From: an uncultured Candidatus Saccharibacteria bacterium
Lineage (GTDB): Bacteria; Patescibacteriota; Minisyncoccia; Phycocordibacterales; UBA2163
Assembly (NCBI GenBank): GCA_964626705.1
Contig: CAZVGL010000001.1
Location: 4,441-68,440 of the forward strand
Direction: 5' to 3'
Length of the DNA: 64,000 nt
Under the pieces are notes generated by a model that saw nothing but the letters and a program-made list of their open reading frames with translations, did no database searches and was not told the DNA's origin. Every line of letters starts with the position of its first letter. Within the stretch, counting starts at the first letter, position 1. Position numbers and translations under genes: made by a program. Below, in pieces: positions 8,995-60,622 of the stretch.

Positions 8995-9056
8995 CGGGCG
9001 GACAGCATAATAAAAAACTCCCTACTTAGGGAGTTTTTTATTATGCTGTCCGCCCG
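8995..9056. terminator. 28-bp perfect inverted repeat hairpin (terminator) downstream of tRNA-Lys
   Basis: cgggcggacagcataataaaaaactccc tactta gggagttttttattatgctgtccgcccg. The right arm overlaps the last 8 nt of the tRNA (3' acceptor strand plus discriminator). Confidence 0.6.
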
Positions 9057-9121
9057 GTAGGATTTGAACCTACGACATTCTCCTTAAAAGGGAGCTGCTC
9101 TACCAACTGAGCTACGGGCGG
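9049..9121 (-). tRNA. tRNA-Lys (anticodon TTT)
   Basis: Reverse complement folds into a cloverleaf: acceptor CCGCCCG/CGGGCGG, D-arm GCTCAGTTGGTAGAGC, anticodon loop CTTTTAA, T-arm GTAGGTTCAAATCCTAC. No encoded CCA. Confidence 0.85.
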
Positions 9122-9163: not shown

Positions 9164-9880
9164 TTATATCCCCAAGATAAACCTCTCCATTGCACTATCC
9201 ATCTCATGTACACCACGACGAGTATCGTGATAAAGAGATATTAGAGAAAAAGAAAGCTTTCTAAGCTCACTTTCTGAATAATTTTTTACAAATCCTAGAG
9301 ACTTTCTAAATACAAACGGATTAAGCCCAGACTCTTTAGCGTCTTTTGTATTGAGCGATAGCAACATACTTTTAACCTGCCAAAACAGTATGCCGTGTAC
9401 TTCTTCATCAGAAACATTGTTCATCTTCGCTTTTTGATACAAGACCCAAAGATTTTTCTTATCTCTCTTCCCCAAGGCTTCTGTTAAAGAAAAGATATCA
9501 AACTTTTTCTTTTTTTCTATTTCAACACCGACAAATTCCTGAATCTTCTCGGCATATTTTTCAAATTTATTTAATTCTGTTTTGTTTAACTTTTCTTCTA
9601 AGAAAATAAAGATATTTTCAGACTTTGAAATCTCTTTCAAACTTTTTAACAAAACTTCTTTTACTTTTTTATCTAAAAACAGATTATCGAAAACTATTAT
9701 ATATTTATTTGTAAAAAGTCCTTGCCCTCCTACGAATTCGTCTAACCTACTCTCATCAAACTCTCCTGCCTCTACACGTACAAACGATGCGTCTGGTTTT
9801 TTTGCAAACATACTACCCAAAAGTGAGTGTAGTTTTTCCCTAGATTTTATTATATCTGTACCGTGGAGAAGATATATCAT
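9164..9880 (-). CDS. holA: DNA polymerase III subunit delta
   Basis: MIYLLHGTD... N-terminus typical of delta subunits. The start at 9880 forms an ATGA overlap with the polA stop; the track ORF extends to 9901. Confidence 0.65.
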   Translation of the reverse strand: MIYLLHGTDIIKSREKLHSLLGSMFAKKPDASFVRVEAGEFDESRLDEFVGGQGLFTNKYIIVFDNLFLDKKVKEVLLKSLKEISKSENIFIFLEEKLNKTELNKFEKYAEKIQEFVGVEIEKKKKFDIFSLTEALGKRDKKNLWVLYQKAKMNNVSDEEVHGILFWQVKSMLLSLNTKDAKESGLNPFVFRKSLGFVKNYSESELRKLSFSLISLYHDTRRGVHEMDSAMERFILGI

Positions 9881-12264
9881 ATTTTTTTCATCTCTCCCCA
9901 ATTATCCCCCACTGATACATCAACCAAAAGCTCTATGTCGTAAATATCTTTTGGATCTATCACTGATTCCATTATTTTTTTAATTTCTTTTGAGATCTCT
10001 TCTACTTTTTTATCTTTGATCTCATATACAAGTTCGTCATGTACCTGAAGTAAAAGCTGTGCGTCTTTTGAGAGTCCCTGCTTCTCAAGATAGCTATCGA
10101 TACGCGCCATAGCTATCTTTATAATATCTGACTGTGTACCCTGAATAGGCGCATTTATAGCCATCCTCTCTGCCATAGCCCTGACGAATGGTATATTAGA
10201 ATTAATCCCCTCAAAGTGCCGTTTTCGGCCAAAATACGTCTCTGTATAACCAAGACGCGCTGCATCTAGCTTTATTTCATGCATATAATGCGCAAGTCCT
10301 GAGAATATTTTGAAGTATTCGTTAAGATACTTTTGTGCCTCTGCACGTGTAGTCTTAAGATTCTCTTTAAGCGCACTTACACCCATGCCATATTGGATAC
10401 CAAAGTTGATAACTTTTGCTTCTCTTCTCATCTCATCATCTACCATATCTATAGGCACATCAAAAACCTCCGATGCAACTTTCGCATGAATATCTCCACC
10501 TGTCTTAAAGTTTTCTATAAGCTTCTCGTCACGAGATAAAAATGCAGCAACACGAAGTTCTATCTGAGAATAATCAAGTGCTACTAATTTATACCCCTTG
10601 CTCGCAACAAATGCATTACGAATATTCCTACCAAGCTCTGTGCGAACAGGTATGTTCTGCAAATTCGGATTCTGAGACGACATCCTTCCCGTTGTCGTAC
10701 CTGTCTGTATGAACTTAGCGTGCAAACGATTATCTTTGTCTAGAAGCTGTGGGATATTATCTATATAAGTAGACAAAAGTTTTTGCAACTCCCTATATGA
10801 AAAGATCTCACTGATGATAGGGTGCATATCCCTCATCTTTTCTAGCTCAGACTCACGAGTAGAACGAGCACCTGAGCCTGTTTTCTTTTGGTTTTTCGGC
10901 TTAAGCTCTAACTTATCAAAAAGCACGACACCTAATTGCTTCGGGGAGTTAATATTAAACTCTTCACCTGCATGTTTATAGATCTTATCCTCAAGTTTAG
11001 ATAAATTTTTATGATAATCTTTCGAAAGTTTTTTTAAATAAACAGCATCGACAACAATACCTCTTTCTTCCATCTTTTCTATCACAGGTATGATAGGTAG
11101 CTCTATATCATTTAAAACTTTTTCTAACTTTTGCTTTTTTATTTCTGTAAATATATACTTATGCGCTTCTTTAAAAGATTTAGTGTCTGCAAACTGCAAA
11201 ATATCCTCAAGTGTTGGGTTTGTAGTGTCAGAATGCAAAAGCCAAAGAGCTATACCAACCTTTTTAATATCGTCATCTGAAACTTCTTCTTTTTCAACCT
11301 CTTCTTCAGGCTCTGCTTCTTCTAAGATATTAGCTCCCCCACCAAATGCCTCTCGCACTCTCTGTGACAAAGTTCTAAACCCAAGTTCTTGAAACAATTT
11401 AAATATCCCATCAACCTCGAGTGCATCTCTCCACTTTTCCTCTGGTATCTTAAAATCTATAGGTACATCAAGACGTATTGTCGCAAGCATTTTAGAAAAC
11501 AATGCTTCTTCTTCATTTTCCTCTAAAATACCTACGATTCGTGGCTTTATACCAGCTTCTTCAAATTTCTCTTTGCTCTTTTTGAGAGCCTTGTACATCT
11601 CTTCAATAGTGCCAAACTTTTGTATTAAAATAGTTGCAGTTTTCTCGCCGATTCCTGCAATCCCAGGGATATTGTCAGACGGATCACCGCGAAGCCCTTT
11701 GTAATCTGTCAAAAGCTTTGGACCAAAACCAAATCTTTCTTCAACACCTTTTTCATCATATAGTACAACTTCTTTAATCCCTTTCTTCTGTGTGTAAACA
11801 CGCACGCGCTTGTTGTCCACGAGCTGGAGTGTATCCATATCGCCAGATGCGATAATCACATCAATATCTTTTTTACCTTTTACCTGATGTGCAATAGTGC
11901 CGAGTACGTCATCGGCTTCAAACCCAGCTTTTTCATAAATAGGAATATTAAAAACTTCAAAAATATCTCGCGAACGGTTAATTTGGGCAATAAGGTCATC
12001 GTGTGTTTTTGCACGCCCTGCTTTATAGTCTTCATAGACCTCATGCCTGTATGTCGGCTCCGGCAAGTCATAACACGCTACCAAATAGTCCGGCTTCAGA
12101 TCGTCAATGATTTTCATAAGCATTGCTGACACTCCATAGAGCGCGCCAGTGGGCTCACCCTTATCCGATGTAAAATCCGGCAATGCATGGTACGCCCTGT
12201 GCAATATCGCATGTGCATCAAGGAGTACTAACCTCTTTTTCTCACTTTTTCCACCTTTAGTCAT
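9877..12264 (-). CDS. polA: DNA polymerase I
   Basis: 795 aa. 5'-3' exonuclease N-terminal domain (LVLLDAHAILHRAYHAL...) and polymerase motifs (RREAKVINFGIQYGM, QVHDELV). Confidence 0.95.
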   Translation of the reverse strand: MTKGGKSEKKRLVLLDAHAILHRAYHALPDFTSDKGEPTGALYGVSAMLMKIIDDLKPDYLVACYDLPEPTYRHEVYEDYKAGRAKTHDDLIAQINRSRDIFEVFNIPIYEKAGFEADDVLGTIAHQVKGKKDIDVIIASGDMDTLQLVDNKRVRVYTQKKGIKEVVLYDEKGVEERFGFGPKLLTDYKGLRGDPSDNIPGIAGIGEKTATILIQKFGTIEEMYKALKKSKEKFEEAGIKPRIVGILEENEEEALFSKMLATIRLDVPIDFKIPEEKWRDALEVDGIFKLFQELGFRTLSQRVREAFGGGANILEEAEPEEEVEKEEVSDDDIKKVGIALWLLHSDTTNPTLEDILQFADTKSFKEAHKYIFTEIKKQKLEKVLNDIELPIIPVIEKMEERGIVVDAVYLKKLSKDYHKNLSKLEDKIYKHAGEEFNINSPKQLGVVLFDKLELKPKNQKKTGSGARSTRESELEKMRDMHPIISEIFSYRELQKLLSTYIDNIPQLLDKDNRLHAKFIQTGTTTGRMSSQNPNLQNIPVRTELGRNIRNAFVASKGYKLVALDYSQIELRVAAFLSRDEKLIENFKTGGDIHAKVASEVFDVPIDMVDDEMRREAKVINFGIQYGMGVSALKENLKTTRAEAQKYLNEYFKIFSGLAHYMHEIKLDAARLGYTETYFGRKRHFEGINSNIPFVRAMAERMAINAPIQGTQSDIIKIAMARIDSYLEKQGLSKDAQLLLQVHDELVYEIKDKKVEEISKEIKKIMESVIDPKDIYDIELLVDVSVGDNWGEMKKI

Positions 12265-12379: not shown

Positions 12380-12805
12380 TTACTTCTTTGCATCTGCAAC
12401 CAAACCTTGAGCTTTTTTGAGAAGATCTGACATCTTCTTCTCAATTTCAGCCTGCATCTTCTCAAGCTCAGAAATACTCTCATCAACTTTTTTTATTCCA
12501 TTTTCGAGCATTACTTTTAATTTAGTGTTATCTGTTGTATCAGCGATACCTTGAAATTTTGCCTTTTGTAATTCAGTAGCCATGATTAGACCAACAACTT
12601 TCTGAAGTTCTTTTGACAGTTGATCCGATTCATTCTTAATTTCAAACAACTCCATCTTAAGCAAGATATTGTCTGTCAGTTGGATAAGCACACTTTCCAT
12701 AGTTTTTGACTTCTGCTCATCTTGCGCAAACGAATTAGCAGAGAAAGAAATAGTAACAACAATCAGTAATGCAACAAAGGTAGGTATAATTTTCGCAAAT
12801 TTCAT
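12380..12805 (-). CDS. secreted coiled-coil protein (signal peptide)
   Basis: 141 aa, MKFAKIIPTFVALLIVVTISFSANSFAQDE... It shares its start codon context, signal-peptide-like 5' end and about 220-bp upstream leader with the two duplicated genes upstream. Confidence 0.55.
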   Translation of the reverse strand: MKFAKIIPTFVALLIVVTISFSANSFAQDEQKSKTMESVLIQLTDNILLKMELFEIKNESDQLSKELQKVVGLIMATELQKAKFQGIADTTDNTKLKVMLENGIKKVDESISELEKMQAEIEKKMSDLLKKAQGLVADAKK

Positions 12806-13023
12806 TTTCGGTCTCCTTTCAAGAGATGAAAATTAAAAAGATAATATTTAATGTACAAAACAATACACTTGTATCGTACTTATATATTAGCATACTTATA
12901 TATGTTTGTCAAGGGTTAATTTTACCCTTACTCTAAGCTAGATTTGGATGCAAAAAAAAGGCCCGGCATATAAATATAACATGCTCGGACCCCGTCTTTC
13001 TTGAAACTGCGAACTTACTTTAA

Positions 13024-13467
13024 CTATTCGCACATATTTACTAAATCCCCTGAAGTAAACTCAACACCAGCAATCTTTACTTCATCCAGATTAATGACCG
13101 CATAATCACCATCTATTGTGGCTCCATTACTAACCATCGCAGACCTGCTTATTTCAGTAGTATCGCCGTATACTTTGACCCTTGCTTTAACAACAAACTT
13201 CATAAGTTCTGCATTAAGCGCTATTTTTGCAACCATTATTCCAAATTTTTCGCTACCATTATTTAATGCTGTAAATTGTGCAACTTTTGTACGAAGCAAT
13301 ATTTTACCATCATCACTTGATACAAATTCATAATTAAGGACGTATTCGTTTCTTACTCCAGGAACCGTATAAGCCAAAAGTCGCTTTTCTGCAAATGAAT
13401 CAGCAGAGAAAGAAGCGGTAACAACAAATAGCAACATAGCAATAACGACAAGATTTCGGATTTTCAT
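13024..13467 (-). CDS. secreted hypothetical protein, duplicate copy 1
   Basis: 147 aa, MKIRNLVVIAMLLFVVTASFSADSFAEKRL... with a signal peptide. An AGGAG ribosome-binding site precedes it (gaaaggagaccgaaaATG). Confidence 0.6.
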   Translation of the reverse strand: MKIRNLVVIAMLLFVVTASFSADSFAEKRLLAYTVPGVRNEYVLNYEFVSSDDGKILLRTKVAQFTALNNGSEKFGIMVAKIALNAELMKFVVKARVKVYGDTTEISRSAMVSNGATIDGDYAVINLDEVKIAGVEFTSGDLVNMCE

Positions 13468-13545
13468 TTTCGGTCTCCTTTCAAGAGATGAAAATTAAAA
13501 AGATAATATTTAATGTACAAAACAATACACTTGTATCGTACTTAT

Positions 13546-13574
13546 ATATTAGCATACTTATATATGTTTGTCAA
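13546..13574 (-). promoter_or_regulatory. sigma70-like promoter TTGACA-N17-TAATAT (minus strand)
   Basis: Equivalent copies lie at 12884-12912 (for the 12380 gene) and 14208-14236 (for copy 2). Each leader also carries the motif TCTAGCTTAGA just upstream of the -35 box, although that motif is absent from the diverged third leader. Confidence 0.5.
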
Positions 13575-13685
13575 GGGTTAATTTTACCCTTACTCTAAGC
13601 TAGATTTGGATGCAAAAAAAAGGCCCGGCATATAAATATAACATGCTCGGACCCCGTCTTTCTTGAAACTGCGAACTTACTTTAA

Positions 13686-14129
13686 CTATTCGCACATATT
13701 TACTAAATCCCCTGAAGTAAACTCAACACCAGCAATCTTTACTTCATCCAGATTAATGACCGCATAATCACCATCTATTGTGGCTCCATTACTAACCATC
13801 GCAGACCTGCTTATTTCAGTAGTATCGCCGTATACTTTGACCCTTGCTTTAACAACAAACTTCATAAGTTCTGCATTAAGCGCTATTTTTGCAACCATTA
13901 TTCCAAATTTTTCGCTACCATTATTTAATGCTGTAAATTGTGCAACTTTTGTACGAAGCAATATTTTACCATCATCACTTGATACAAATTCATAATTAAG
14001 GACGTATTCGTTTCTTACTCCAGGAACCGTATAAGCCAAAAGTCGCTTTTCTGCAAATGAATCAGCAGAGAAAGAAGCGGTAACAACAAATAGCAACATA
14101 GCAATAACGACAAGATTTCGGATTTTCAT
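13686..14129 (-). CDS. secreted hypothetical protein, duplicate copy 2 (100% identical)
   Basis: Identical 147-aa product; part of the tandem duplication. Confidence 0.6.
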   Translation of the reverse strand: MKIRNLVVIAMLLFVVTASFSADSFAEKRLLAYTVPGVRNEYVLNYEFVSSDDGKILLRTKVAQFTALNNGSEKFGIMVAKIALNAELMKFVVKARVKVYGDTTEISRSAMVSNGATIDGDYAVINLDEVKIAGVEFTSGDLVNMCE

Positions 14130-14240
14130 TTTCGGTCCCCTTTCAAGAGATGAAAATTAAAAAAGTAATATGTAATGTACAAAACAATACACTTGTATCG
14201 TGCTTATATATTAGCATATTTAGATGCGTTTGTCAAGTAC

Positions 14241-14699
14241 CTATTTGACTTCAATCTCTCTTGTGTTTTCGTCTATGAATTTGAAGTACATTTCTTGTTT
14301 ATCGTCTGGTAAGACATCTTTTACATTATCAGGCCACTCTATAAATATAATGTTTTTAGGGTTTTTAGAGACTTCTTCCCAACCTAAAGTCTTTAACTCT
14401 TCCCCGCTCTTAAGCCTATATGCGTCAATATGGATCAGATTATCAAAATCTTGATTCTCTAGTTTATAAATCTTTTCAATAACAAATGTCGGACTTGTAA
14501 CAGTGTTCTCTATACCAAACTCTTTTGCCACCATTTTTACAAAAGTTGTTTTACCAGAACCCAAGTCACCATGCATCGCCACCACAAAGGCTAAGCCTTT
14601 GTGAGGTTTGATGTTTTCTACAAACTCTTTTGCTATTTTTCCTGTTTCTTCTATGCTTTTAGATATCATACACACTACTTTATCATTTTTTAGACGCAA
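14241..14699 (-). CDS. tsaE: tRNA threonylcarbamoyladenosine biosynthesis protein TsaE
   Basis: P-loop GDLGSGKTTFVK and YjeE-like conservation. The real start is probably the Met at 14669. Confidence 0.85.
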   Translation of the reverse strand: MRLKNDKVVCMISKSIEETGKIAKEFVENIKPHKGLAFVVAMHGDLGSGKTTFVKMVAKEFGIENTVTSPTFVIEKIYKLENQDFDNLIHIDAYRLKSGEELKTLGWEEVSKNPKNIIFIEWPDNVKDVLPDDKQEMYFKFIDENTREIEVK

Positions 14700-14706
14700 A
14701 TAAAGG

Positions 14707-14745
14707 GGAAATCAAAATGACTTTCCCCTTTTTTTAATTACCGAA
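14707..14745. terminator. bidirectional hairpin terminator
   Basis: AGGGGAAA tcaaaatgac TTTCCCCT flanked by A- and T-runs, between the lipoprotein gene and tsaE. Confidence 0.5.
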
Positions 14746-15318
14746 ACCTCGATAGCCTGTAGTACCCCAATAACCAACATTGAAGTTACTCTCTCTATCG
14801 TATCTCCTAGACCTTCTACGTCTGCTATCTCCCCAACCCCAATCACCGCCAAGATATCTAATTCTTCTTCCAGAATATACATTTTGGAAGTAAATCATCC
14901 TTCTTCTCGATGGCCAGTATTGCCCTCTGTTAATGTTGACTTGAACATTAGCATTACCAAGAGAAAAGGTAGTTTTTCCACATCCACCATTGCAGCTACT
15001 TTTTCCGCAACTATCGCAAGATGGTGTGTATTCTACTACAGAAGATCTTGTTTCTGAAGCAGAACCATAGAAGTTACTGCTGTCCACTACTATTGGACTT
15101 ACAGCTCTTCTTTTACATCTACTCCCCCCATGCAGTCCACGCTCTCTATCACCATAATAAAGATTGTGAACCGGACAATGAAACTTGTCACTTGGACGCT
15201 TCATATAGCTTCCAAGACTAGGAGCGGTGACGGTGGAGCGCGTTGTTGCGCATCCACTAAATACTCCGATCAGGAGCATTATAGATATTATTGTCATTAT
15301 CAGTTTTTTAACTTTCAT
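14734..15318 (-). CDS. Cys-rich, Arg/Gly-rich lipoprotein
   Basis: Signal peptide with lipobox (IGVFSGC). Cys clusters and an RRRRSRRYDR tail. GC content is higher than the surroundings. Confidence 0.55.
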   Translation of the reverse strand: MKVKKLIMTIISIMLLIGVFSGCATTRSTVTAPSLGSYMKRPSDKFHCPVHNLYYGDRERGLHGGSRCKRRAVSPIVVDSSNFYGSASETRSSVVEYTPSCDSCGKSSCNGGCGKTTFSLGNANVQVNINRGQYWPSRRRMIYFQNVYSGRRIRYLGGDWGWGDSRRRRSRRYDRESNFNVGYWGTTGYRGFGN

Positions 15319-15391
15319 GACATCCTCACTTTCTCGATCTCCTGATCGAAATAATATTTTAAATTATAAAACAACTACTTTTCTTAGCCCT

Positions 15392-15419
15392 ATTGTAGCA
15401 TATACACCGTATTTGTCAA
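15392..15419 (-). promoter_or_regulatory. sigma70-like promoter TTGACA-N16-TACAAT for the lipoprotein gene
   Basis: Minus strand reads TTGACAaatacggtgtatatgcTACAAT. Confidence 0.45.
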
Positions 15420-15563
15420 GGGTTTATACCCCATCCACACATCTACCCAACATCCTTGATTTTTGCCAAAAACCACGTATTCTAAAAAGTGGAGAGAGGA
15501 GCGACTCTTTGACAAGTAAAAGGTAGTAGATTTCTTTTCTAATTTCTAACAATTTAATTTGGA

Positions 15564-16190
15564 TTGGAGGTAGTTATGAAAAACAGATTTATTATATTAA
15601 TCGCGTGTTTCGCAATGCTCTGCAGTATTGTGATTACACAATCGCAGGAAACGTTTGCCGAGAAAACGAAATCGGCAAGTCATGACGTACATTTCTTTAC
15701 ACAAGGCTCTGATGGAGCAAATGATCTGCAGTCGTTTAAGTACGACAAGAAAGAAAACGGTGTGTCACACAACAATTGGCCGGAATATGGTATCGAAGGT
15801 GAGAGCAAACAGCGAAACGTTGATGAGAGCAATGTAGCTTACGATAAGGCGATTGATCCTGGATATAAACAAGCCGCTATTGGAAGATGTCCGACCCGGG
15901 CTGAATACGGAACACTGGCCGCTATCGTCACACCCACATATTATAAAGCAGGGGTGTTGGCAATTACACAGGAACAGAAACCGATTAATGAAGGCGATGT
16001 GTTGAAGATAAGAGCAGCCATACTGAATGCAGAAATTATGGCCATGTCAAACTCAGGAGGTGCCGGTAAGTACCAGGATTTCCATGGACTCACACTGGAA
16101 AATGTTGAGCTATCAGCGAATGATCTGAAGATTAACAACAATGAAAAGTTTGCCGTAACAAAAAAAGTGAAAGTCTCAAGACAGGTTTAA
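15564..16190 (+). CDS. secreted hypothetical protein with atypical (high-GC) composition
   Basis: 208 aa with an N-terminal signal peptide and a GGAGG ribosome-binding site. Hand-counted GC is about 42-50% against roughly 33-38% for neighbouring genes. Codons ending in G or C (ccg, gcg, ctg) are frequent. Confidence 0.6.
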   Translation: MEVVMKNRFIILIACFAMLCSIVITQSQETFAEKTKSASHDVHFFTQGSDGANDLQSFKYDKKENGVSHNNWPEYGIEGESKQRNVDESNVAYDKAIDPGYKQAAIGRCPTRAEYGTLAAIVTPTYYKAGVLAITQEQKPINEGDVLKIRAAILNAEIMAMSNSGGAGKYQDFHGLTLENVELSANDLKINNNEKFAVTKKVKVSRQV

Positions 16191-16370
16191 TCAGCTTTAA
16201 TAAAAGCATGGCACACTTGTAATACAACTTGGAAACGCTTAATCGGACGCAAAGCGCCGGTAAAATTAGTACAAGTTTTATTTAGAAGGAGTAGTATAAA
16301 CAATGTTTTAGAGGAGTCGCTCCCTCTACTCTATTTTGTACATTTAGTAGAAGCATGAACACAGATAGCC

Positions 16371-16408
16371 CAACCTTTATCATAAAGGTTGGGCTATTTC
16401 TTTTTTAA
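16371..16408 (+). terminator. rho-independent terminator
   Basis: GCCCAACCTTT atcataaa GGTTGGGC followed by TTTCTTTTTT. Confidence 0.55.
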
Positions 16409-16412
16409 AAAT

Positions 16413-16475
16413 CTCTCCTCAAGGTCGCACCTATGAAGAAGGAGTTACGTATCTTCTTCATCGAGGAAAGACCTT
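16413..16475. repeat. dispersed palindromic intergenic repeat, copy R1
   Basis: ctcctcaaggtcgcacc...cgaggaaagacctt with an inner hairpin atgaagaag/cttcttcat. Confidence 0.75.
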
Positions 16476-16587
16476 AATTTATAGACGATAAAAAGCAATA
16501 CGATTGCTTTTTATTACCACACGGTTTTTATACAAAACAAATATTGTCACGATGTGGAAAAGACGCTAATATGGAAATAATAATGAC

Positions 16588-18255
16588 ATGGTCACTTTTG
16601 ATGAAACAAAAGTAGAGAAGAAGATTGCCCAACTCCACAGGAAAGAGGAGGAGGAATTAGCAGATATTCTATCAAACAAATATGGTTTGCAGTATATTGA
16701 CCTTTCTGGTGTTCCGATAAACACAGAAGCTCTTCAGCTCATCACAGAAGAAGTCTCTAAAGAAGCTGAAATGGCTATTTTTAAAAAAGTTGGCAAGAAG
16801 ATCTCCGTTGCCGTACGTTCACCAAACAATATAAAAACAAAAGAAGTGGTAAAAGAGCTTGAAGAAAAAAACTATCTTCCCACACTCTTCATGGCTTCTT
16901 CAAACAGTATTAACCGTGCTATTAAAAGATATGCTGACATCTCCTTTGCTGTTGAAACTAAAGCAGGGATGCTGGACATATCTGGAGAAGATATAAAAAA
17001 GATATTAACTTCACTAAACAGTGTTTCTGATATTAAAAACCTCATTGACGAAACATTGAAAATAAAAAAGGCTCACAGAATATCAAGAATACTTGAAGTT
17101 ATTATTGCTGGAGGTCTTGCAAAAAATGCATCTGACGTACATATAGAGCCAGAAGAAAATATAGTGCGTTTAAGATATCGTCTCGACGGTGTACTTATAA
17201 ACATTACAGATATTGATATAGAAACATATGACTTACTTTTATCAAGAATAAAACTTATATCCGGACTAAAGCTAAACCTAAAGAACACAGCACAAGACGG
17301 AAGGTTTAGTGTACAGATCGACGAAGATGATGTGGAAATAAGAACATCCATGCTTCCAGATGCATATGGTGAATCTATAGTTATGCGTATCCTAAACCCA
17401 AAGACGATATCTTTGTCGATGGAAGACTTGGGTATAGAAAAAAGGTTGTTTGATATCTTAGAAAGAGAAATATCTAAACCAAATGGCATGATACTAACAA
17501 CAGGACCAACTGGTTCTGGTAAAACAACCACACTATATGCATTCCTAAGAAGGATACAGACTCCCGAGAAAAAAATAATAACCATAGAAGACCCTATCGA
17601 GTACCATCTTCCAGGGATAGTGCAAACACAAGTAGACGATACAAATTATACATTTGGAAACGGCCTACGCTCAACTCTACGACAAGACCCTGACATCATA
17701 ATGGTGGGTGAGATACGAGATGAAGACGTAGCCTCAACTGCCATAAACGCATCCCTAACTGGTCATCTTGTATTCTCAACACTACACACAAACAATGCCG
17801 CTGGCTCATTCCCTCGCCTTATAGATCTTGGTATTAATCCTAAAGTTATAAGCTCTTCTATAAACGTAGTGCTAGCACAACGACTTGTAAGAAAGCTTTG
17901 TGAATCATGTAAAAAACAAATAGAAATAAGTGGCGACAAAAAGAAACAAATAGACAGGACTCTTGAAACTATTATTAATAAAGAAAATATTCAAGAGAAT
18001 ACTTCCATTATTTGGGAGGCCGGAGGATGTGACAAATGTAATAACACTGGATACAAAGGTAGGATCGGAGTTTTCGAAGCAGTTGTAATGGATGAAAAAG
18101 TAGAAGAGCTTGTAAAAGGTAGTGCGAGTGAAAGAGAGATATCTGAAGCTGCGATAAGCCAAGGAGTGCTTAGTATGCAACAAGACGGAGTACTGAAAGT
18201 CCTAAGAGGTGTCACGTCACTTGATGAGCTGGCGAGGGTGATAGAGCTGACCTAA
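16588..18255 (+). CDS. pilB: type IV pilus / type II secretion ATPase (PilB/GspE family)
   Basis: Walker A GPTGSGKTTTLYA, Asp box, His box and a C-terminal CxxC...CxxC motif; 555 aa. Confidence 0.9.
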   Translation: MVTFDETKVEKKIAQLHRKEEEELADILSNKYGLQYIDLSGVPINTEALQLITEEVSKEAEMAIFKKVGKKISVAVRSPNNIKTKEVVKELEEKNYLPTLFMASSNSINRAIKRYADISFAVETKAGMLDISGEDIKKILTSLNSVSDIKNLIDETLKIKKAHRISRILEVIIAGGLAKNASDVHIEPEENIVRLRYRLDGVLINITDIDIETYDLLLSRIKLISGLKLNLKNTAQDGRFSVQIDEDDVEIRTSMLPDAYGESIVMRILNPKTISLSMEDLGIEKRLFDILEREISKPNGMILTTGPTGSGKTTTLYAFLRRIQTPEKKIITIEDPIEYHLPGIVQTQVDDTNYTFGNGLRSTLRQDPDIIMVGEIRDEDVASTAINASLTGHLVFSTLHTNNAAGSFPRLIDLGINPKVISSSINVVLAQRLVRKLCESCKKQIEISGDKKKQIDRTLETIINKENIQENTSIIWEAGGCDKCNNTGYKGRIGVFEAVVMDEKVEELVKGSASEREISEAAISQGVLSMQQDGVLKVLRGVTSLDELARVIELT

Positions 18256-18500: not shown

Positions 18501-18577
18501 AGTGAAGTGTGCTTTTTTAAAAGTCTGGCCGAGTACAGCGAGGGTATCCGAGGACTTTTGAAAAAAGTACATTTCAC
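18501..18577. repeat. palindromic repeat family 2, copy A (upstream of ruvB)
   Basis: gtgaagtgtgcttttttaaaagtctggccgagtacagcgagggtatccgaggacttttgaaaaaagtacatttcac. Termini are inverted: gtgaaatgt/acatttcac. Confidence 0.7.
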
Positions 18578-18634: not shown

Positions 18635-19663
18635 ATGTCAAGCCCTAAAGAAACATTAAAAGATTCAGGCGGTAGTGGTATAAAAGCATCGCTTGATACC
18701 ACCCTTCGCCCCAAACACTGGGACGAATATGTTGGACAAGCAAATATCAAAGAAAACTTAAAGATATTGCTTACCGCAGCCAAAGAACGCTCTCATCCAC
18801 CAGAGCATCTCCTTTTTTATGGCCCACCAGGACTTGGGAAAACCACGCTAGCACACCTTATCTCGCAAGAACTCGGCGCTCAGGTGCGTGTCACTTCAGG
18901 ACCCGCTATTGAAAAGGTGGGTGACCTTGCAGCTATACTTACAAACCTCGGTGAAGGTGATATCCTTTTTATAGATGAGGTGCATAGACTTAATAAAACT
19001 ATTGAGGAAGTACTTTACCCTGCTATGGAGTCTGGGGTGATGGATATCATCATCGGTAAAGGTCCTTCTGCTCGGACTATACAGCTTGAGCTTCCGCCTT
19101 TCACACTTATAGCTGCTACGACTCGTATCGCACTTCTTTCTTCCCCTCTTCGTTCACGTTTTTCAGGTGGAACATTCCGCTTGAAGTTCTATGAGCAAAG
19201 CGAAATAGAAGAAATACTAAAACGCTCTGCTAAGATATTAGAAGTGGAGGTGGACGACCTTGCTGCAAATGAAATATCAAAAAGAAGTCGCTTCACACCG
19301 AGGATGGCAAACTACTTGTTGAAGCGTTGTCGTGATTTTGCACAAGTAAACCGAGAAACGCTTTCTAAAGACATGGTGGACAAAGCGCTAGAGCTTTTAG
19401 AGATAGACGAACTTGGACTTAACTCTTCTGATAGAAAGATCCTAGAAACTATTATAGAGAAGTTCAAAGGTGGGCCGGTAGGCCTTTCCACTATCGCTGC
19501 CGCAACATCAGAAGAGCAAGCTACAATAGAAGAAGTACATGAGCCATATCTTATACAGCTCGGGCTTCTACAACGCACACCACGTGGGCGTGTAGCAACA
19601 GAAGCAGCTTATAAACATTTGGGGTATGATGTACCCGAAGATTTACAAGGGAGATTATTATAA
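18635..19663 (+). CDS. ruvB: Holliday junction DNA helicase RuvB
   Basis: AAA+ Walker A GPPGLGKTTLA and sensor motifs; 342 aa. Confidence 0.95.
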   Translation: MSSPKETLKDSGGSGIKASLDTTLRPKHWDEYVGQANIKENLKILLTAAKERSHPPEHLLFYGPPGLGKTTLAHLISQELGAQVRVTSGPAIEKVGDLAAILTNLGEGDILFIDEVHRLNKTIEEVLYPAMESGVMDIIIGKGPSARTIQLELPPFTLIAATTRIALLSSPLRSRFSGGTFRLKFYEQSEIEEILKRSAKILEVEVDDLAANEISKRSRFTPRMANYLLKRCRDFAQVNRETLSKDMVDKALELLEIDELGLNSSDRKILETIIEKFKGGPVGLSTIAAATSEEQATIEEVHEPYLIQLGLLQRTPRGRVATEAAYKHLGYDVPEDLQGRLL

Positions 19664-19668
19664 AACAA

Positions 19669-19748
19669 GTGCAGTGAAATATGCTTTTTTAAAAGTCTGG
19701 CCGAGCATAGCGAGGGAGCCCGAGGACTTTTGAAAAAACATATTCCAC
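19669..19748. repeat. palindromic repeat family 2, copy B (downstream of ruvB)
   Basis: About 88% identical to copy A and in direct orientation. It overlaps the N-terminal extension of the track ORF for yebC. Confidence 0.7.
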
Positions 19749-21378: not shown

Positions 21379-21384
21379 TCTTAT

Positions 21385-21439
21385 CGCTCCTCAAGGTCGC
21401 ACCTCTCCCGTCGCAAGCTCCTCCTCGAGGAACGACCTT
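21385..21439. repeat. dispersed palindromic intergenic repeat, copy R2
   Basis: cgctcctcaaggtcgcacctctcccgtcgcaagctcctcctcgaggaacgacctt. Confidence 0.75.
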
Positions 21440-25536: not shown

Positions 25537-25560
25537 AAGCGAAGTGAAATAACGCGGGAA

Positions 25561-25626
25561 AAGGTCGTTCCTCGAGGAGGAGTGCAGCGAAGCGGAATGA
25601 CGGGAGAGGTGTGACCTTGAGGAGTG
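25561..25626. repeat. dispersed palindromic intergenic repeat, copy R3 (opposite orientation)
   Basis: aaggtcgttcctcgaggaggagtgcagcgaagcggaatgacgggagaggtgtgaccttgaggag. Confidence 0.75.
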
Positions 25627-25890
25627 TTAGTGTATATCTCTAATAGTCTTCTTATAAGTTTTGAGTTTTTCTTTTAGGTTTTCCATAACCTGTTTTTTTC
25701 GTAAAAAGATTTCGTTTTTTATTATTGGATCAGTAGATATAAAAACAGTGCCATTGCGTACATCTATATCCCCTTTTTCTATATCAACCCCAACCACATC
25801 TTTCACAACAGAAACCAGCTCATCTTTCACAAACTTATCTGGAGGAGTAATGTTTTTAAACTTTGATAAATAGTCGCTGATGTTGAACAT
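25627..25890 (-). CDS. DUF721 (RemB/DciA-like) small protein
   Basis: 87 aa. The pattern ...VSVVKDVVGVDIEKGDIDVRNGTVFISTDPIIKNEIFLRKKQVMENL resembles DUF721, which is typically encoded near dnaN. Confidence 0.45.
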   Translation of the reverse strand: MFNISDYLSKFKNITPPDKFVKDELVSVVKDVVGVDIEKGDIDVRNGTVFISTDPIIKNEIFLRKKQVMENLKEKLKTYKKTIRDIH

Positions 25891-27589: not shown

Positions 27590-27628
27590 CTTCGCATCTT
27601 TTTCATCGAGGAAAGACCTTTTCCCGCT
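27590..27628. repeat. truncated half-copy of the dispersed repeat (R4)
   Basis: ...atcttcgcatctttttcatcgaggaaagacctt matches the right half of R1. Confidence 0.5.
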
Positions 27629-33465: not shown

Positions 33466-33530
33466 CCTTCGCTCCTCAAGGTCTCACCTTCGCTTGAATG
33501 AAGTGGAGCGGAGGTGAGTCCTTGTGGAGC
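33466..33530. repeat. dispersed palindromic intergenic repeat, copy R5 (variant)
   Basis: ccttcgctcctcaaggtctcaccttcgcttgaatgaagtggagcggaggtgagtccttgtggag. Confidence 0.65.
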
Positions 33531-36627: not shown

Positions 36628-36846
36628 TTTTTGTATGGTTATTATTATGTATTATTGACATATCTTATAATATATTGCTTTATTATGCAAATCCCCTACT
36701 CATCATTTATCTGTAAAGCTATTGACATGGTATAAGGGTATGTGATATGGTGTTAGCTTCGTAGTACATTACAGTTGAATATTACATAAGCCCGCCACGA
36801 CCACAATTCTATATTTTCTTATAATTGTTAAAAAGGAGTTGGTTTT

Positions 36847-37383
36847 ATGGAAACAGGTTTAAAAAAAGGATTATTGACACATGGTTTTAATAATGATTTG
36901 GAAGAAAGTCTTAAAACAATTCTGAGTGAATATGGCATACCTATTACATCTAACAACTCTTTTGGCGAAACCCTAAAGGCAATAGACACGAATTCGTTAA
37001 GCTTTAACGGTTTAATAATTAATGCCAAAGACCTTCCGATCGATGCTATAGGTACAGAACTTCACAAATCTATTTCTGGAATGACTGGGTTAATCCAGGA
37101 AGCTTTGAGTAAGAAGTTGCCGGTGATCATAGTTAGTCGTACGGGTGATAATTATTTTATCACTTTGAACGGCACTCTTATGACGGTTTCCGATGATCTC
37201 AGGAAAAATGTTACCATGGGTCTTACCAAAGAAATCCTTACAAAAGAAGATCTTGCAGACCTGTTCATCAGGAGTGCAGAAAAGACTTCTTTTGTAGATA
37301 AAGCTTGGGATTTCGAACCTATCAGTGCTTCCGACACCTTAGAAAAGATTGAGGATAAGAAGACAGAAAAGTCACTGGCTTAA
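36847..37383 (+). CDS. hypothetical protein
   Basis: 178-aa ORF preceded by an AGGAG ribosome-binding site. No family recognised. Confidence 0.5.
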   Translation: METGLKKGLLTHGFNNDLEESLKTILSEYGIPITSNNSFGETLKAIDTNSLSFNGLIINAKDLPIDAIGTELHKSISGMTGLIQEALSKKLPVIIVSRTGDNYFITLNGTLMTVSDDLRKNVTMGLTKEILTKEDLADLFIRSAEKTSFVDKAWDFEPISASDTLEKIEDKKTEKSLA

Positions 37384-37542
37384 CTCAGTTTCTGTTGTAG
37401 ATTGTAAATTAGTAGATGGTTAAATTTAATTCGTTTATAATTTATTGTTTCATCTTTAAAAATGGCTGTGGCGGCTTATGTAATTGTAGTTATTGTCCTG
37501 GGGATTCCGTATGAATTCCTAGGGCTTTTGTTTTGTAAAAAT

Positions 37543-42761: not shown

Positions 42762-42890
42762 AAGGTCTTTCTTCGGCGAAACGAAGTGGAGCGGAGGAGA
42801 GTCCTTGTGTCAAATTCCGTATTTACTCCACCAAGGTCTCACCTTTCCCGTCGCTGTCACTCCTCCTCAAGGAAAGACCTTTTTCCGCGA
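42762..42890. repeat. composite copy (two adjacent units) of the dispersed palindromic repeat (R6)
   Basis: aaggtctttcttcggcgaaacgaagtggagcggaggagagtccttgtg plus ccaaggtctcacctttcccgtcgctgtcactcctcctcaaggaaagacctt. Confidence 0.7.
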
Positions 42891-43267: not shown

Positions 43268-43327
43268 TTCGCTCCTTAAGGTCTCACCTCTCTCTACGAG
43301 GCGAGGAAAGACCTTTTCCTGCGAAAC
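43268..43327. repeat. dispersed palindromic intergenic repeat, copy R7
   Basis: ttcgctccttaaggtctcacctctctctacgaggcgaggaaagacctt. Confidence 0.7.
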
Positions 43328-53571: not shown

Positions 53572-53652
53572 ACCTCTCCTCAATGTCCCACCTACGAAGG
53601 AGGAGTTTCGTATCTCCTTCGTCGTCTATCTGCGAGGAACAACCTTTTCCCT
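53572..53652. repeat. dispersed palindromic intergenic repeat, copy R8 (diverged)
   Basis: cctctcctcaatgtcccacctacgaaggaggagtttcgtatctccttcgtcgtctatctgcgaggaacaacctt. Confidence 0.6.
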
Positions 53653-53688
53653 AGATTTTTGAAATTTAATTTATGGTATATTACTTAA

Positions 53689-60549: not shown

Positions 60550-60605
60550 AAGGTCGTTCCTCATCGTGTAGCGAAGCGGAACAGGGAGGTGCGACCTTGA
60601 GGAGC
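60550..60605. repeat. dispersed palindromic intergenic repeat, copy R9 (same subtype as R3)
   Basis: aaggtcgttcctcatcgtgtagcgaagcggaacagggaggtgcgaccttgaggagc. Confidence 0.75.
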
Positions 60606-60622
60606 AAATACAAAAAACAAAA

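What the first reader, a model, noticed from the sequence alone, without database searches (positions are those of the whole stretch)
14734..16340. GC-rich two-gene cassette (Cys/Arg-rich lipoprotein and secreted protein), probably horizontally acquired
The divergent pair 14734..15318 (minus) and 15564..16190 (plus) has hand-counted GC of about 42-50% against roughly 33-38% for flanking genes. It also uses G/C-ending codons (ccg, gcg, ctg) that are rare elsewhere in the window. Both products are exported: one has a lipobox and the other a Gram-positive-style signal peptide. A 13/14-bp inverted repeat (core ggagcgactc / gagtcgctcc) lies at about 15495-15512 and 16308-16325, bracketing the plus-strand gene. 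A copy of the dispersed repeat (R1) follows. This could be a foreign effector or antigen cassette.
Basis: seen in the sequence. Interest (0 to 1): 0.6.

Follow-up and report, generated by a model that had tools for sequence, protein, structure and literature searches.

The report
Variable secreted-protein slot, paired mRNA ends
The two genes are not a foreign insert but the fast-changing core of a conserved locus in a small group of ultra-small (CPR) bacteria, and the inverted repeat around the secreted-protein gene probably ties the two ends of its messenger RNA together.

Summary
The sequence features are real, but the reading as a horizontally acquired two-gene cassette does not hold.

- **Lipoprotein gene (14734-15318, minus).** It is 41% GC because of its amino acids (GC2 0.53). 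Its synonymous codon use is typical (GC3 0.31). Homologues sit directly upstream of tsaE in every related lineage found.
- **Secreted-protein gene (15576-16190, plus).** It has the most atypical codon use of 58 window genes (GC3 0.42 against 0.29 expected).
- **The slot.** This gene sits between the lipoprotein gene and pilB. In relatives whose PolA, RuvB and PilB are 75-94% identical, the same slot holds exported proteins of 114-311 aa. These are barely or not detectably related to each other. One relative has an empty slot.
- **What stays constant.** A promoter-like block, a 5' arm at the predicted transcript start, a 3' arm before the intrinsic terminator, and the terminator.
- **The arms.** They pair over 27-29 bp in the window (10-bp perfect core). 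Pairing is predicted in all seven filled-slot loci. Two lineages have different arm sequences that remain complementary.

I read the repeat as a 5'-UTR/3'-UTR panhandle of the mRNA, a variant of the icaR and hbs type. The slot content was probably replaced by recombination. The functions of both proteins remain unknown.

The parts
14734..15318 (-). Gene for a 194-aa membrane-anchored (lipobox) protein. It has a CPVH..HGG..C knuckle, a variable middle, and a conserved tail YWPSRRRxIYFxNVYSGRxIRYLGGxWGW followed by an Arg/Tyr/Gly-rich end.
   Evidence: ORF. Homologues are 37-60% identical with conserved motifs. They always lie upstream of tsaE. Codon use is typical. Composition.
14698..14735 (-). 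Terminator-like hairpin (GGGGAAA..TTTCCCC followed by a T run on the minus strand) between the lipoprotein gene and tsaE.
   Evidence: Inverted repeat I4; sequence.
15392..15419 (-). Promoter-like site for the lipoprotein gene: TTGACA, 16 nt, TG-TACAAT (11 of 12 matches).
   Evidence: The block is conserved in relatives.
15456..15483 (+). Promoter-like block for the secreted-protein gene: TTGATT, 16 nt, TATTCT (8 of 12 matches, so below the scan threshold).
   Evidence: Read. It is nearly invariant as TTGATT-16/17-TATTGT in L012, L016, L011 and L027. It resembles the pilB promoter block. Inferred, not mapped.
15486..15514 (+). 5' arm of the long-range helix.
15576..16190 (+). Gene for a 204-aa exported protein with a signal peptide ending TFA|EK. 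SD GGAGG lies at 15566-15570. It has the most atypical codon use in the window.
   Evidence: The only database match is the same protein. There is a weak positional homologue in L012/L016.
16304..16337 (+). 3' arm of the long-range helix.
   Evidence: It is conserved in L012, L016 and L027 while the sequence between stop codon and arm is not.
16363..16408 (+). Intrinsic terminator: 17-pair stem, 3-nt loop, T run.
   Evidence: (I2).
16411..16482 (+). Copy of the dispersed intergenic repeat R1 (CTCCTCAAGGTCGCACCT .. TCGAGGAAAGACCTT). It is not part of the helix. It is present at the same place in L027, and only its first 14 nt are present in L012/L016.
16544..16572 (+). Promoter-like site for pilB (TTGTCA, 17 nt, TAATAT). 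It marks the conserved right border of the variable region.
15435..16522 (.). Segment missing from the relative L008, where the lipoprotein promoter directly abuts the pilB promoter block. It is bounded in the window by CCACAC at 15435-15440 and 16517-16522.
   Evidence: Read. The boundaries are approximate.

Best explanation
**What the locus is.** The pair is the variable core of a conserved chromosomal locus: polA .. tsaE - membrane-anchored Cys-knuckle/Arg-Tyr-Gly-rich protein, then divergently an exported-protein slot - pilB - ruvB. A small clade of Patescibacteria (CPR) shares it.

**Minus-strand gene.** It is a resident, vertically inherited, fast-evolving gene. Its raised GC is a consequence of its amino-acid composition.

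**Plus-strand gene.** It fills a slot whose mature-protein part differs beyond or nearly beyond recognition between close relatives. The promoter block, 5' leader, 3' element and terminator persist. In the window the slot's ORF has the most atypical codon use of all 58 genes tested. This fits replacement by recombination from a somewhat GC-richer relative.

**The inverted repeat.** It marks the two ends of this gene's transcript. About 25-29 nt at the predicted 5' end pair with about 30 nt just upstream of the intrinsic terminator, closing the mRNA into a panhandle. I propose it acts in RNA to control mRNA stability or processing. It could shield the 5' and 3' ends from ribonucleases. Alternatively, as a duplex of more than 20 bp, it could offer a site for a double-strand-specific RNase such as RNase III.

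**Shown.** Synteny; divergence pattern; codon statistics; complementarity, its position and its persistence with changed sequence.

**Inferred.** The transcription start; that both arms lie on one RNA; the direction of the effect; recombination as the cause of the codon anomaly.
For: **Synteny.**
- The same gene order is present in L012-L015, L016/L020, L011, L027 and L029.
- Lipoprotein homologues are always next to tsaE.

**Divergence.** Against relatives, PolA is 84-88% identical, RuvB 90-94%, PilB 75-83% and TsaE 79-87%. The lipoprotein is 27-60% and the slot protein 23-31% in global alignment.

**Slot proteins.**
- All-against-all BLASTP detects only window~L012/L016 (E about 1e-3) and L012~L016.
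- hhalign of the window family against the L011 protein matches only the signal peptide.
- L008 has no slot gene and no arms.
- L016/L020 are 100% identical to L012 from mid-ORF through pilB but 23-88% identical upstream. Two independent assemblies show this mosaic.

**Codon use.** The slot genes of relatives have GC3 0.36-0.39, like their own pilB and ruvB.

**Helix.**
- MFE and centroid folds of the predicted transcript close with the 5'/3' helix. Pair probabilities are about 1.0 in the window, L012, L016, L011, L027, L029 and L030.
- 5'-UTR against 3'-UTR complementarity versus dinucleotide shuffles: window z 6.7, L012 7.3, L016 8.2, L027 5.7 (each 0 of 300); L011 z 2.3 (10 of 300); L029 z 2.1 (16 of 300); L030 z 1.8 (19 of 300).

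**Changed arms that still pair.**
- Window AGCGAC/GUCGCU against L011 UGGUGC/GCACCA, at the same offset from the -10 hexamer. That is four pairs changed on both sides and none broken.
- L012 has GGGGCGAC opposite GUCGCUCC, a G-U pair.
- L029/L030 use UAGAGUGCUCU/AGAGCGCUCUA.

**Other support.**
- The sense-strand duplex is more stable than the antisense duplex in the window (-37.7 against -28.1 kcal/mol), L012, L016 and L011.
- Local hairpins of single arms are weak, -1.4 to -8.7 kcal/mol.

**Precedents.** 5'/3'-UTR pairing in icaR gives an RNase III substrate (PMC3868564). In hbs a 14-bp pairing limits RNase Y cleavage (PMC5737220).
Against: - No transcript data exist. The promoter block matches the sigma-70 consensus at only 8 of 12 positions and was missed by the scan. 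If transcription starts downstream of 15514, the RNA model fails.
- Independent lineages are few. Window, L027, L012 and L016 share homologous arms. The two lineages with different arms are individually weak (p about 0.03-0.06).
- There is no sense-strand advantage in L027, L029 or L030.
- MAFFT did not put the arms in register. Covariation was therefore tabulated by hand, not tested formally.
- GC3 of the slot gene is only 2.4 SD above the gene-to-gene spread. No donor or close homologue exists in 5.8 billion proteins. Import therefore remains an inference.
- Both structure models are unusable (pLDDT 35.6 and 33.9). The protein functions are unknown.
Confidence: 0.55

Rival explanations
1. 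One reading: both genes form one GC-rich cassette recently acquired from a foreign donor, with the inverted repeat as its boundary.
For: Both genes are above the window's mean GC. The plus-strand gene has atypical codon use. A repeat brackets it.
Against: - The lipoprotein gene has typical synonymous codon use and conserved synteny with tsaE in every relative.
- The repeat brackets only one gene.
- No integrase, transposase, tRNA or target duplication lies within 10 kb.
- The core motif occurs nowhere else in the window.
- No homologue exists outside this clade.
Confidence: 0.04
2. The arms act in DNA. They would be sites of a site-specific recombinase that inverts the gene (an on/off switch, since the promoter lies outside the arms), or the anchors at which slot contents are exchanged.
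For: - The arms sit exactly at the borders between conserved and variable sequence.
- The slot content differs between close relatives.
- A mosaic recombinant exists.
- L027, L029 and L030 show no sense-strand bias.
- Complementary changes in both arms are also expected if recombination homogenises them.
Against: - The arms are imperfect as DNA. The longest perfect run is 10 bp in the window and 7 bp in L012, with bulges and transition mismatches that are G-U in the sense RNA.
- All contigs of the window species fetched here (13 loci, L001-L007 and L021-L026, some from the same contig) and all relatives have the same orientation.
- No recombinase family was recorded within 10 kb.
- The breakpoints seen (L016 against L012; shared 5' UTR of L027 and L016) lie inside the ORF, not in the arms.
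Confidence: 0.15
3. The complementarity has no joint function. Each arm would be an independent local element of the AGAG..CTCT type that happens to match the other: a 5' stem-loop or operator, and a small hairpin before the terminator.
For: - Both arms have partly palindromic frames: AGAG..CUCU on the left, AGAGG..CCUCU on the right.
- The L029/L030 right arm AGAGCGCTCT is a perfect palindrome.
- The terminator scan lists 16309-16328 as a weak hairpin.
- A 10-bp repeat alone is not significant.
Against: - The centres of the arms are reverse complements, not direct copies: AGCGAC/GTCGCT in the window and GTGGTGCT/AGCACCAC in L011.
- The L011 right arm has almost no local structure (-1.4 kcal/mol).
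- Local hairpins are 4-6 times weaker than the duplex.
- Cognate complementarity exceeds shuffles in every filled locus.
- The arms are absent where the gene is absent.
Confidence: 0.15
4. The atypical codon use of 15576-16190 is not a sign of import. It would reflect gene-to-gene scatter, expression level, or selection on mRNA structure in a rapidly evolving resident gene.
For: - GC3 is 2.4 SD from the mean of about 70 ORFs. Other genes reach 0.37-0.39.
- A weak positional homologue in L012/L016 argues for descent at the same site.
- The transcript folds better than shuffles (z -5.5).
Against: - It has the largest per-codon departure of 58 genes, uniform along the ORF.
- Neighbouring pilB has GC3 0.30.
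- Slot genes in relatives are not outliers in their own genomes.
- Slot contents are demonstrably non-homologous between close relatives.
- The panhandle and terminator alone can account for the folding z-score.
Confidence: 0.35

Closest known systems
icaR mRNA 5'-UTR/3'-UTR pairing in Staphylococcus aureus (PMC3868564)
   Same: [quoted passage not shown] The duplex is a candidate substrate for RNase III.
   Different: In icaR a short UCCCCUG motif pairs with the Shine-Dalgarno region and blocks initiation. Here the duplex is 27-33 bp and involves the extreme 5' end, about 50 nt upstream of the SD. Only in L011 does the predicted pairing reach the SD. Nothing has been tested experimentally.
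hbs mRNA 5'/3'-UTR interaction in Bacillus subtilis (PMC5737220)
   Same: A long-range helix between leader and trailer modulates ribonuclease access and so mRNA stability.
   Different: The hbs helix is 14 bp and overlaps a mapped RNase Y site. Here no cleavage sites are known and the helix is about twice as long.
hok mRNA fold-back (fbi/tac) of hok/sok type I toxin-antitoxin systems (from my own knowledge, not checked here)
   Same: Pairing of the 5' end with the 3' end of a full-length mRNA would keep it in a closed form.
   Different: hok encodes a membrane toxin of about 50 aa and has an antisense RNA partner. Here the product is a 114-311-aa exported protein, and no antisense gene was seen.
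Invertible DNA segments (invertons) controlling surface proteins (from my own knowledge)
   Same: Inverted repeats flank a segment next to or containing a surface-protein gene.
   Different: Inverton repeats are near-perfect, and a recombinase and both orientations are found. Here the repeats are bulged and mismatched, no recombinase lies nearby, and only one orientation was seen.
Hypervariable gene slots between conserved core genes
   Same: Conserved flanks and regulatory ends, with non-homologous contents in close relatives and a mosaic recombinant.
   Different: This slot holds one small orphan exported protein. It carries no mobility genes, and the contents have no homologues outside the clade.

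Membership tests
Horizontally acquired island or cassette | Atypical composition or codon use of all member genes | tested here: not met
   The plus-strand gene is atypical (GC3 z 4.2). The lipoprotein gene is typical (z 0.1).
Horizontally acquired island or cassette | Absent from the orthologous locus of close relatives | tested here: not met
   The lipoprotein gene is present in all relatives. The slot is filled in six of the seven related locus types (L012-L015, L016/L020, L011, L027, L029, L030) and empty only in L008.
Horizontally acquired island or cassette | Mobility genes, a tRNA or target-site duplications at the borders | tested here: not met
   None within 10 kb. The only border repeat is a 6-bp CCACAC.
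Bacterial lipoprotein (Lgt/Lsp substrate) | N-terminal signal peptide ending in a lipobox [LVI][ASTVI][GAS]C | tested here: inconclusive
   The window has VFSG|C, with F at position -3. L008 and L009 have LSGC and P0009 has LGGC. L011, L016 and L027 have ECFA/DCFG, which looks like a signal-peptidase-I site instead. No predictor was available.
5'-UTR/3'-UTR pairing element (icaR or hbs type) | Both arms lie on one transcript | not testable with these tools
   The arms lie between a conserved promoter-like block and an intrinsic terminator. No transcript data are available.
5'-UTR/3'-UTR pairing element (icaR or hbs type) | Complementarity above chance and conserved in relatives | tested here: met
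   z is 5.7-8.2 in four loci and 1.8-2.3 in three. The helix is predicted in all seven filled loci.
5'-UTR/3'-UTR pairing element (icaR or hbs type) | Compensatory changes that keep the pairing | tested here: inconclusive
   L011 has four pairs changed on both sides, L012 has a G-U pair, and L029/L030 have a new arm pair. There are only three or four independent arm types, and they were tabulated by hand because MAFFT misaligned the arms.
5'-UTR/3'-UTR pairing element (icaR or hbs type) | An effect on translation or mRNA decay | not testable with these tools
   This needs experiments.
Inverton (phase-variable DNA inversion) | Near-perfect inverted repeats | tested here: not met
   The longest perfect run is 10 bp in the window and 7 bp in L012, with bulges.
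Inverton (phase-variable DNA inversion) | Both orientations present in the population; an invertase gene | tested here: inconclusive
   Only one orientation is seen in all assembled contigs, and no recombinase lies within 10 kb. Assemblies show only the majority state, and reads were not available.
TIR-bounded mobile cassette (MITE or mobile insertion cassette) | Multiple copies of the terminal repeats in the genome, and a precise empty site | tested here: not met
   The core motif occurs only at these two places in 64 kb. The empty locus L008 also lacks the promoter block and terminator, so it is not a precise excision.
Diversity-generating retroelement target | A template/variable repeat pair and a reverse transcriptase nearby | tested here: not met
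   No long direct repeat was found in 14000-17000. No reverse-transcriptase family was recorded within 10 kb.

The most novel reading that the evidence does not exclude
The tsaE-pilB interval of this CPR clade is a dedicated 'expression socket' for exported proteins. A fixed promoter, 5' arm, leader and signal peptide lie on one side, and a fixed 3' arm and terminator on the other. Unrelated mature-protein sequences are swapped in between by recombination among lineages. The conserved mRNA panhandle is the required processing or stability signal that makes any inserted ORF expressible. This would be a new way of organising surface-protein diversification in ultra-small episymbiotic bacteria.
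Probability: 0.25. Interest if true: 0.7.

Novelty: new variant of a known kind. Interest (0 to 1): 0.5.

Why it matters
CPR/Patescibacteria are thought to live attached to host cells, yet little is known about their surface proteins or gene regulation. This locus offers two things.

- **A variability hot spot.** A pair of exported orphan proteins next to the type IV pilus ATPase gene evolve or are exchanged far faster than the rest of the genome. They are natural candidates for host-contact or immune-evasion functions.
- **A testable cis-acting RNA element.** The end-to-end mRNA helix persists while the coding sequence between its arms changes. If confirmed, it would extend the few known bacterial 5'/3'-UTR interactions to a distant phylum. 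It would also show that such a helix can be the conserved part of a gene whose product is not.

For annotation:
- A raised GC signal here is partly an amino-acid effect.
- Standard gene callers miss the lipoprotein gene in several assemblies.

Tried and rejected
**Protein family and structure searches.**
- Pfam and NCBIfam gave no family for either protein or for the positional counterparts.
- AlphaFold2 models of both proteins, with the shallow alignments available, were unusable (pLDDT 35.6 and 33.9). No fold search was run.
- An exhaustive profile search with the lipoprotein family found only 6 representatives among 1.84 billion. The family is confined to this clade.

**Rejected leads.**
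- The 204-aa protein might be a paralogue of the tandem 147-aa secreted proteins, given similar signal peptides and an LNAEIM/LNAELM match. BLASTP gave E 0.3-0.6, and no paralogue of either protein exists in the window.
- A diversity-generating retroelement was considered. There is no template/variable repeat pair and no reverse transcriptase.

**RNA searches.** Rfam gave only tRNAs at gathering score and nothing credible in 15300-16600 at E up to 1.

**Tests that were uninformative or could not be run.**
- An ungapped DNA inverted-repeat scan was not informative. The 10-bp core is within chance.
- A formal pair-count test was not run because MAFFT did not align the arms in register.
- The first duplex-shuffle script timed out. 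Whole-UTR duplexfold energies are inflated by long loops and were not used as statistics.

**Searches for more lineages.**
- The genome and metagenome scans with the lipoprotein profile returned few lineages.
- More came from 90% clusters of RuvB and RuvC.
- Exact-protein look-ups with TsaE showed no strain of the window species with a different slot content.
Full report
**1. What is in the window**

The region lies in a 36% GC genome between polA (9877-12264, minus) and tsaE (14241-14669, minus) on one side, and a pilB-type ATPase gene (16588-18255, plus) and ruvB (18635-19663, plus) on the other.

- The minus-strand ORF 14734-15318 encodes a 194-aa protein with an N-terminal signal and the sequence VFSG|C.
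- The plus-strand ORF is best read from ATG 15576, 5 nt after GGAGG. It encodes 204 aa with a signal peptide ending TFA|EK.
- The two genes are transcribed divergently.
- The lipoprotein gene has a near-consensus promoter, TTGACA-16-TGcTACAAT at 15419-15392 on the minus strand.
- The plus-strand gene is followed by a strong intrinsic terminator at 16363-16408, and then by a copy of a dispersed repeat at 16411-16482.

**2. Checking the composition claim**

The two genes are 41.4% and 42.4% GC. This is above the window mean of 36.3% but no higher than ruvB (44.0%) or two other genes. The two genes differ in why.

- **Lipoprotein gene.** GC sits at codon position 2 (0.533) because the protein is rich in Arg, Gly, Ser and Cys. 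GC3 is 0.306 against 0.302 expected from its amino acids. Its codon choice fits the window model (z -0.2), and 15 of 23 Arg codons are AGA.
- **Plus-strand gene.** GC3 is 0.419 against 0.290 expected (z 4.2). It has the largest per-codon departure from window codon usage of 58 genes (-0.18 nats per codon, z -5.6). The excess is uniform along the ORF, with CCG, GCG, CTG, TCG and GCC 2-8 times over-used.
- Against the empirical spread of ORFs (SD 0.053), the plus-strand gene is 2.4 SD out. It is the top gene but not far outside the tail.

**3. Relatives**

*Homologue searches.*
- The 204-aa protein has no database match other than itself.
- The lipoprotein has a handful of homologues. An exhaustive profile search found only six representatives among 1.84 billion proteins.

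*Loci recovered.* I fetched the loci of these homologues, and of RuvB and RuvC cluster mates. This gave seven related locus types:

- L012-L015, with L009, L010 and L017-L019
- L016/L020
- L011, a MAG labelled Candidatus Saccharibacteria
- L027
- L029
- L030
- L008

*Conserved order.* All keep the order polA .. tsaE - lipoprotein homologue, then divergently an exported-protein gene - pilB - ruvB. L008 is the exception: the lipoprotein promoter abuts the pilB promoter block, and there is no intervening gene.

*Divergence*.

| Protein | Identity to the window |
|---|---|
| PolA | 84-88% |
| RuvB | 90-94% |
| PilB | 75-83% |
| TsaE | 79-87% |
| Lipoprotein homologues | 27-60% |
| Slot proteins (global alignment) | 23-31% |

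*Slot proteins.* They are 114, 162, 204, 229, 267 and 311 aa long, and all have signal peptides.
- BLASTP links only window to L012/L016 (24-29% over 76-112 aa, E about 1e-3; 8e-6 in a single comparison) and L012 to L016.
- A profile comparison with the L011 protein matches only the signal peptide.

*Evidence of recombination.* L016 and L020 come from different samples. Both are 100% identical to L012 from the middle of the slot ORF through pilB, but only 23-88% identical upstream. Recombination therefore does occur inside this locus.

*Codon use in relatives.* The slot genes of relatives are not codon outliers in their own genomes. Their GC3 of 0.36-0.39 equals that of their pilB and ruvB.

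**4. Consequence for the horizontal-transfer reading**

- The lipoprotein gene is a resident gene. It has typical codons, conserved position and conserved motifs: CPVH..HGG..C, and YWPSRRRxIYFxNVYSGRxIRYLGGxWGW.
- There are no mobility genes, tRNA genes or target duplications.
- What does change is the content of the plus-strand slot. Together with the codon anomaly, this makes replacement of the mature-protein part by recombination plausible in the window lineage. No donor is known.
- L008 is best read as a deletion. The segment it lacks, about 15435-16522, is bounded by CCACAC.
- The promoter region of the slot gene looks like a diverged copy of the pilB promoter region. This is an inference from reading the alignments.

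**5. The inverted repeat**

*Significance in the window.*
- The exact core is 10 bp, at 15498-15507 and 16314-16323.
- With G-U pairs and two single-base bulges, it extends to 27-29 pairs between 15486-15514 and 16304-16337, with a duplex energy of -37.7 kcal/mol.
- This exceeds all 300 dinucleotide shuffles of the 3' UTR (z 6.7). It also exceeds all but 3 of 700 non-cognate pairings of 5' and 3' flanks in the window.

*Position.*
- The left arm begins 3 nt after a -10-like hexamer. That hexamer belongs to a block, TTGATT-16/17-TATTGT (TATTCT in the window), that is nearly invariant across lineages.
- The right arm lies 0-30 nt before the terminator stem.
- Between window, L027, L012 and L016 the arms, the promoter block and the terminator region are conserved. 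The ORF and the proximal 3' UTR between them are not.

*Arm sequences in the other lineages.*
- L011: the arm centres read UGGUGC/GCACCA instead of AGCGAC/GUCGCU at the same offset. That is four pairs changed on both sides with none broken.
- L012: one position is a G-U pair.
- L029/L030: the arms are UAGAGUGCUCU/AGAGCGCUCUA.
- L008: with no gene in the slot, there are no arms.

*Predicted folds.* MFE and centroid folds of each predicted transcript close with this helix, at pair probabilities near 1.

*Shuffle statistics*.

| Locus | z | Shuffles reaching the observed score |
|---|---|---|
| L012 | 7.3 | 0 of 300 |
| L016 | 8.2 | 0 of 300 |
| L027 | 5.7 | 0 of 300 |
| L011 | 2.3 | 10 of 300 |
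| L029 | 2.1 | 16 of 300 |
| L030 | 1.8 | 19 of 300 |

**6. RNA or DNA?**

*For an RNA role.*
- The arms lie between a promoter block and a terminator.
- As DNA repeats they are poor. The longest perfect run in L012 is 7 bp.
- The mismatches are transitions that give G-U in the sense transcript. The sense duplex is 4-10 kcal/mol more stable than the antisense one in the window, L012, L016 and L011.
- Single arms form only weak local hairpins, -1.4 to -8.7 kcal/mol.

*Against, or neutral.*
- L027, L029 and L030 show no strand bias.
- The promoter is a weak consensus match and is unmapped.
- Only three or four arm types are independent.

*DNA-level alternatives.* An inversion switch or a recombination anchor cannot be excluded.
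- Every assembled contig has the same orientation, and no recombinase lies within 10 kb.
- The recombination breakpoints I could see lie inside the ORF, not in the arms.

**7. How it most likely works**

I propose that the mRNA of the slot gene is closed by a panhandle between its first about 25 nt and the 3' UTR.

- **Known precedents.** In S. aureus icaR, 3'-UTR/5'-UTR pairing blocks initiation and creates an RNase III substrate (PMC3868564). In B. subtilis hbs, a 14-bp 5'/3' interaction limits RNase Y cleavage in the leader (PMC5737220).
- **Differences here.** The helix is about twice as long. It involves the extreme 5' end rather than the Shine-Dalgarno sequence, except possibly in L011. 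It is the conserved part of a gene whose coding sequence is not conserved.
- **Open question.** Whether it stabilises the mRNA by shielding its ends, or destabilises it by double-strand cleavage, cannot be decided from sequence.

**8. The proteins**

Neither has a known family or a usable model.

- **Lipoprotein.** The mature part is basic (pI 10.1). Near the anchor it has a short Cys/His knuckle, duplicated in L011. The middle is variable, and the tail is conserved and aromatic/Arg-rich. A metal-binding, envelope-associated role is a guess only.
- **Slot proteins.** They share nothing but export signals.
- **Interpretation.** Their position next to pilB and their rate of change suit a role at the cell surface, for example in host contact. 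This is inference.

**9. Verdict**

- **Observation:** partly confirmed.
- **'Foreign two-gene cassette' reading:** not supported for the pair; partly supported for the content of one slot.
- **Most interesting result:** the conserved end-to-end mRNA helix around a replaceable ORF. This is a new variant of a known kind of element, resting on computation and few lineages.

Noticed in passing
window 12800-14237 (genes 13024-13467 and 13686-14129): A 147-aa secreted-protein gene is tandemly duplicated with 100% identity (662-bp unit; a third copy of the 114-nt upstream block lies at 14124-14237). Other samples of the same species carry a single copy (L002, L003, L023), so copy number is polymorphic.
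   Followed up: partly
window 16411-16482, 21383-21439, 33468-33526, 43268-43322, 53572-53653, partial 27593-27627 and 42864-42888; minus strand 25554-25629 and 60587-60622: A dispersed intergenic repeat of 70-90 nt (CTCCTCAAGGTCGCACCT, variable middle, TCGAGGAAAGACCTTTTCC), usually just after terminators. One inverted pair flanks the 4.1-kb tyrS/trpS-type synthetase plus PBP segment. It has no Rfam match. L027 has a copy at the same place as the window, and L012/L016 have only its first 14 nt.
   Followed up: partly
window 36781-36803 and 37463-37484, around gene 36847-37383: A second gene (178 aa, no signal peptide, mildly atypical codon use) is flanked by a 22-of-23 complementary pair in its 5' and 3' flanks. 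End-to-end pairing may therefore recur in this genome.
   Followed up: partly
window 18501-18566 and 19673-19738: Two 66-nt direct repeats (89% identical), each containing a hairpin, flank ruvB. They produce a high 5'/3' complementarity score for that gene.
   Followed up: no
window 14712-14882 (minus) within 14734-15318: JGI and NCBI gene calls on several assemblies omit the conserved 194-aa lipoprotein ORF. They call a 56-aa out-of-frame ORF instead (L001, L015, L021-L023, L026). Other assemblies-194 aa.
   Followed up: partly
L016 1-4010 and L020 against L012 6631-10700: L016 and L020 are 100% identical to L012 from mid-ORF of the slot gene through pilB (more than 2 kb), but only 23-88% identical in tsaE, the lipoprotein gene and the 5' half of the slot gene. 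Two independent assemblies show this recombinant mosaic.
   Followed up: yes
window 15430-15483 against 16513-16572: The promoter region of the slot gene resembles the pilB promoter region (CCACAC .. TTGnnn-TTTGCCAAAAA-like spacer .. TAnTnT), as if duplicated. L008 has a single copy and no slot gene.
   Followed up: partly
L029 5130-5427 (minus): An extra small lipobox protein gene (LIGVFTGGC, Tyr/Gly/Pro-rich, about 90 aa) lies between the lipoprotein homologue and the slot gene in this lineage only.
   Followed up: no
window 8995-9056: A perfect 30-nt palindrome with a 2-nt spacer abuts a tRNA gene (9049-9121, minus).
   Followed up: no
window 58426-58560: Three tandem 45-nt (15-codon) repeats, 80-98% identical, lie inside the gene 58206-59969.
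   Followed up: no
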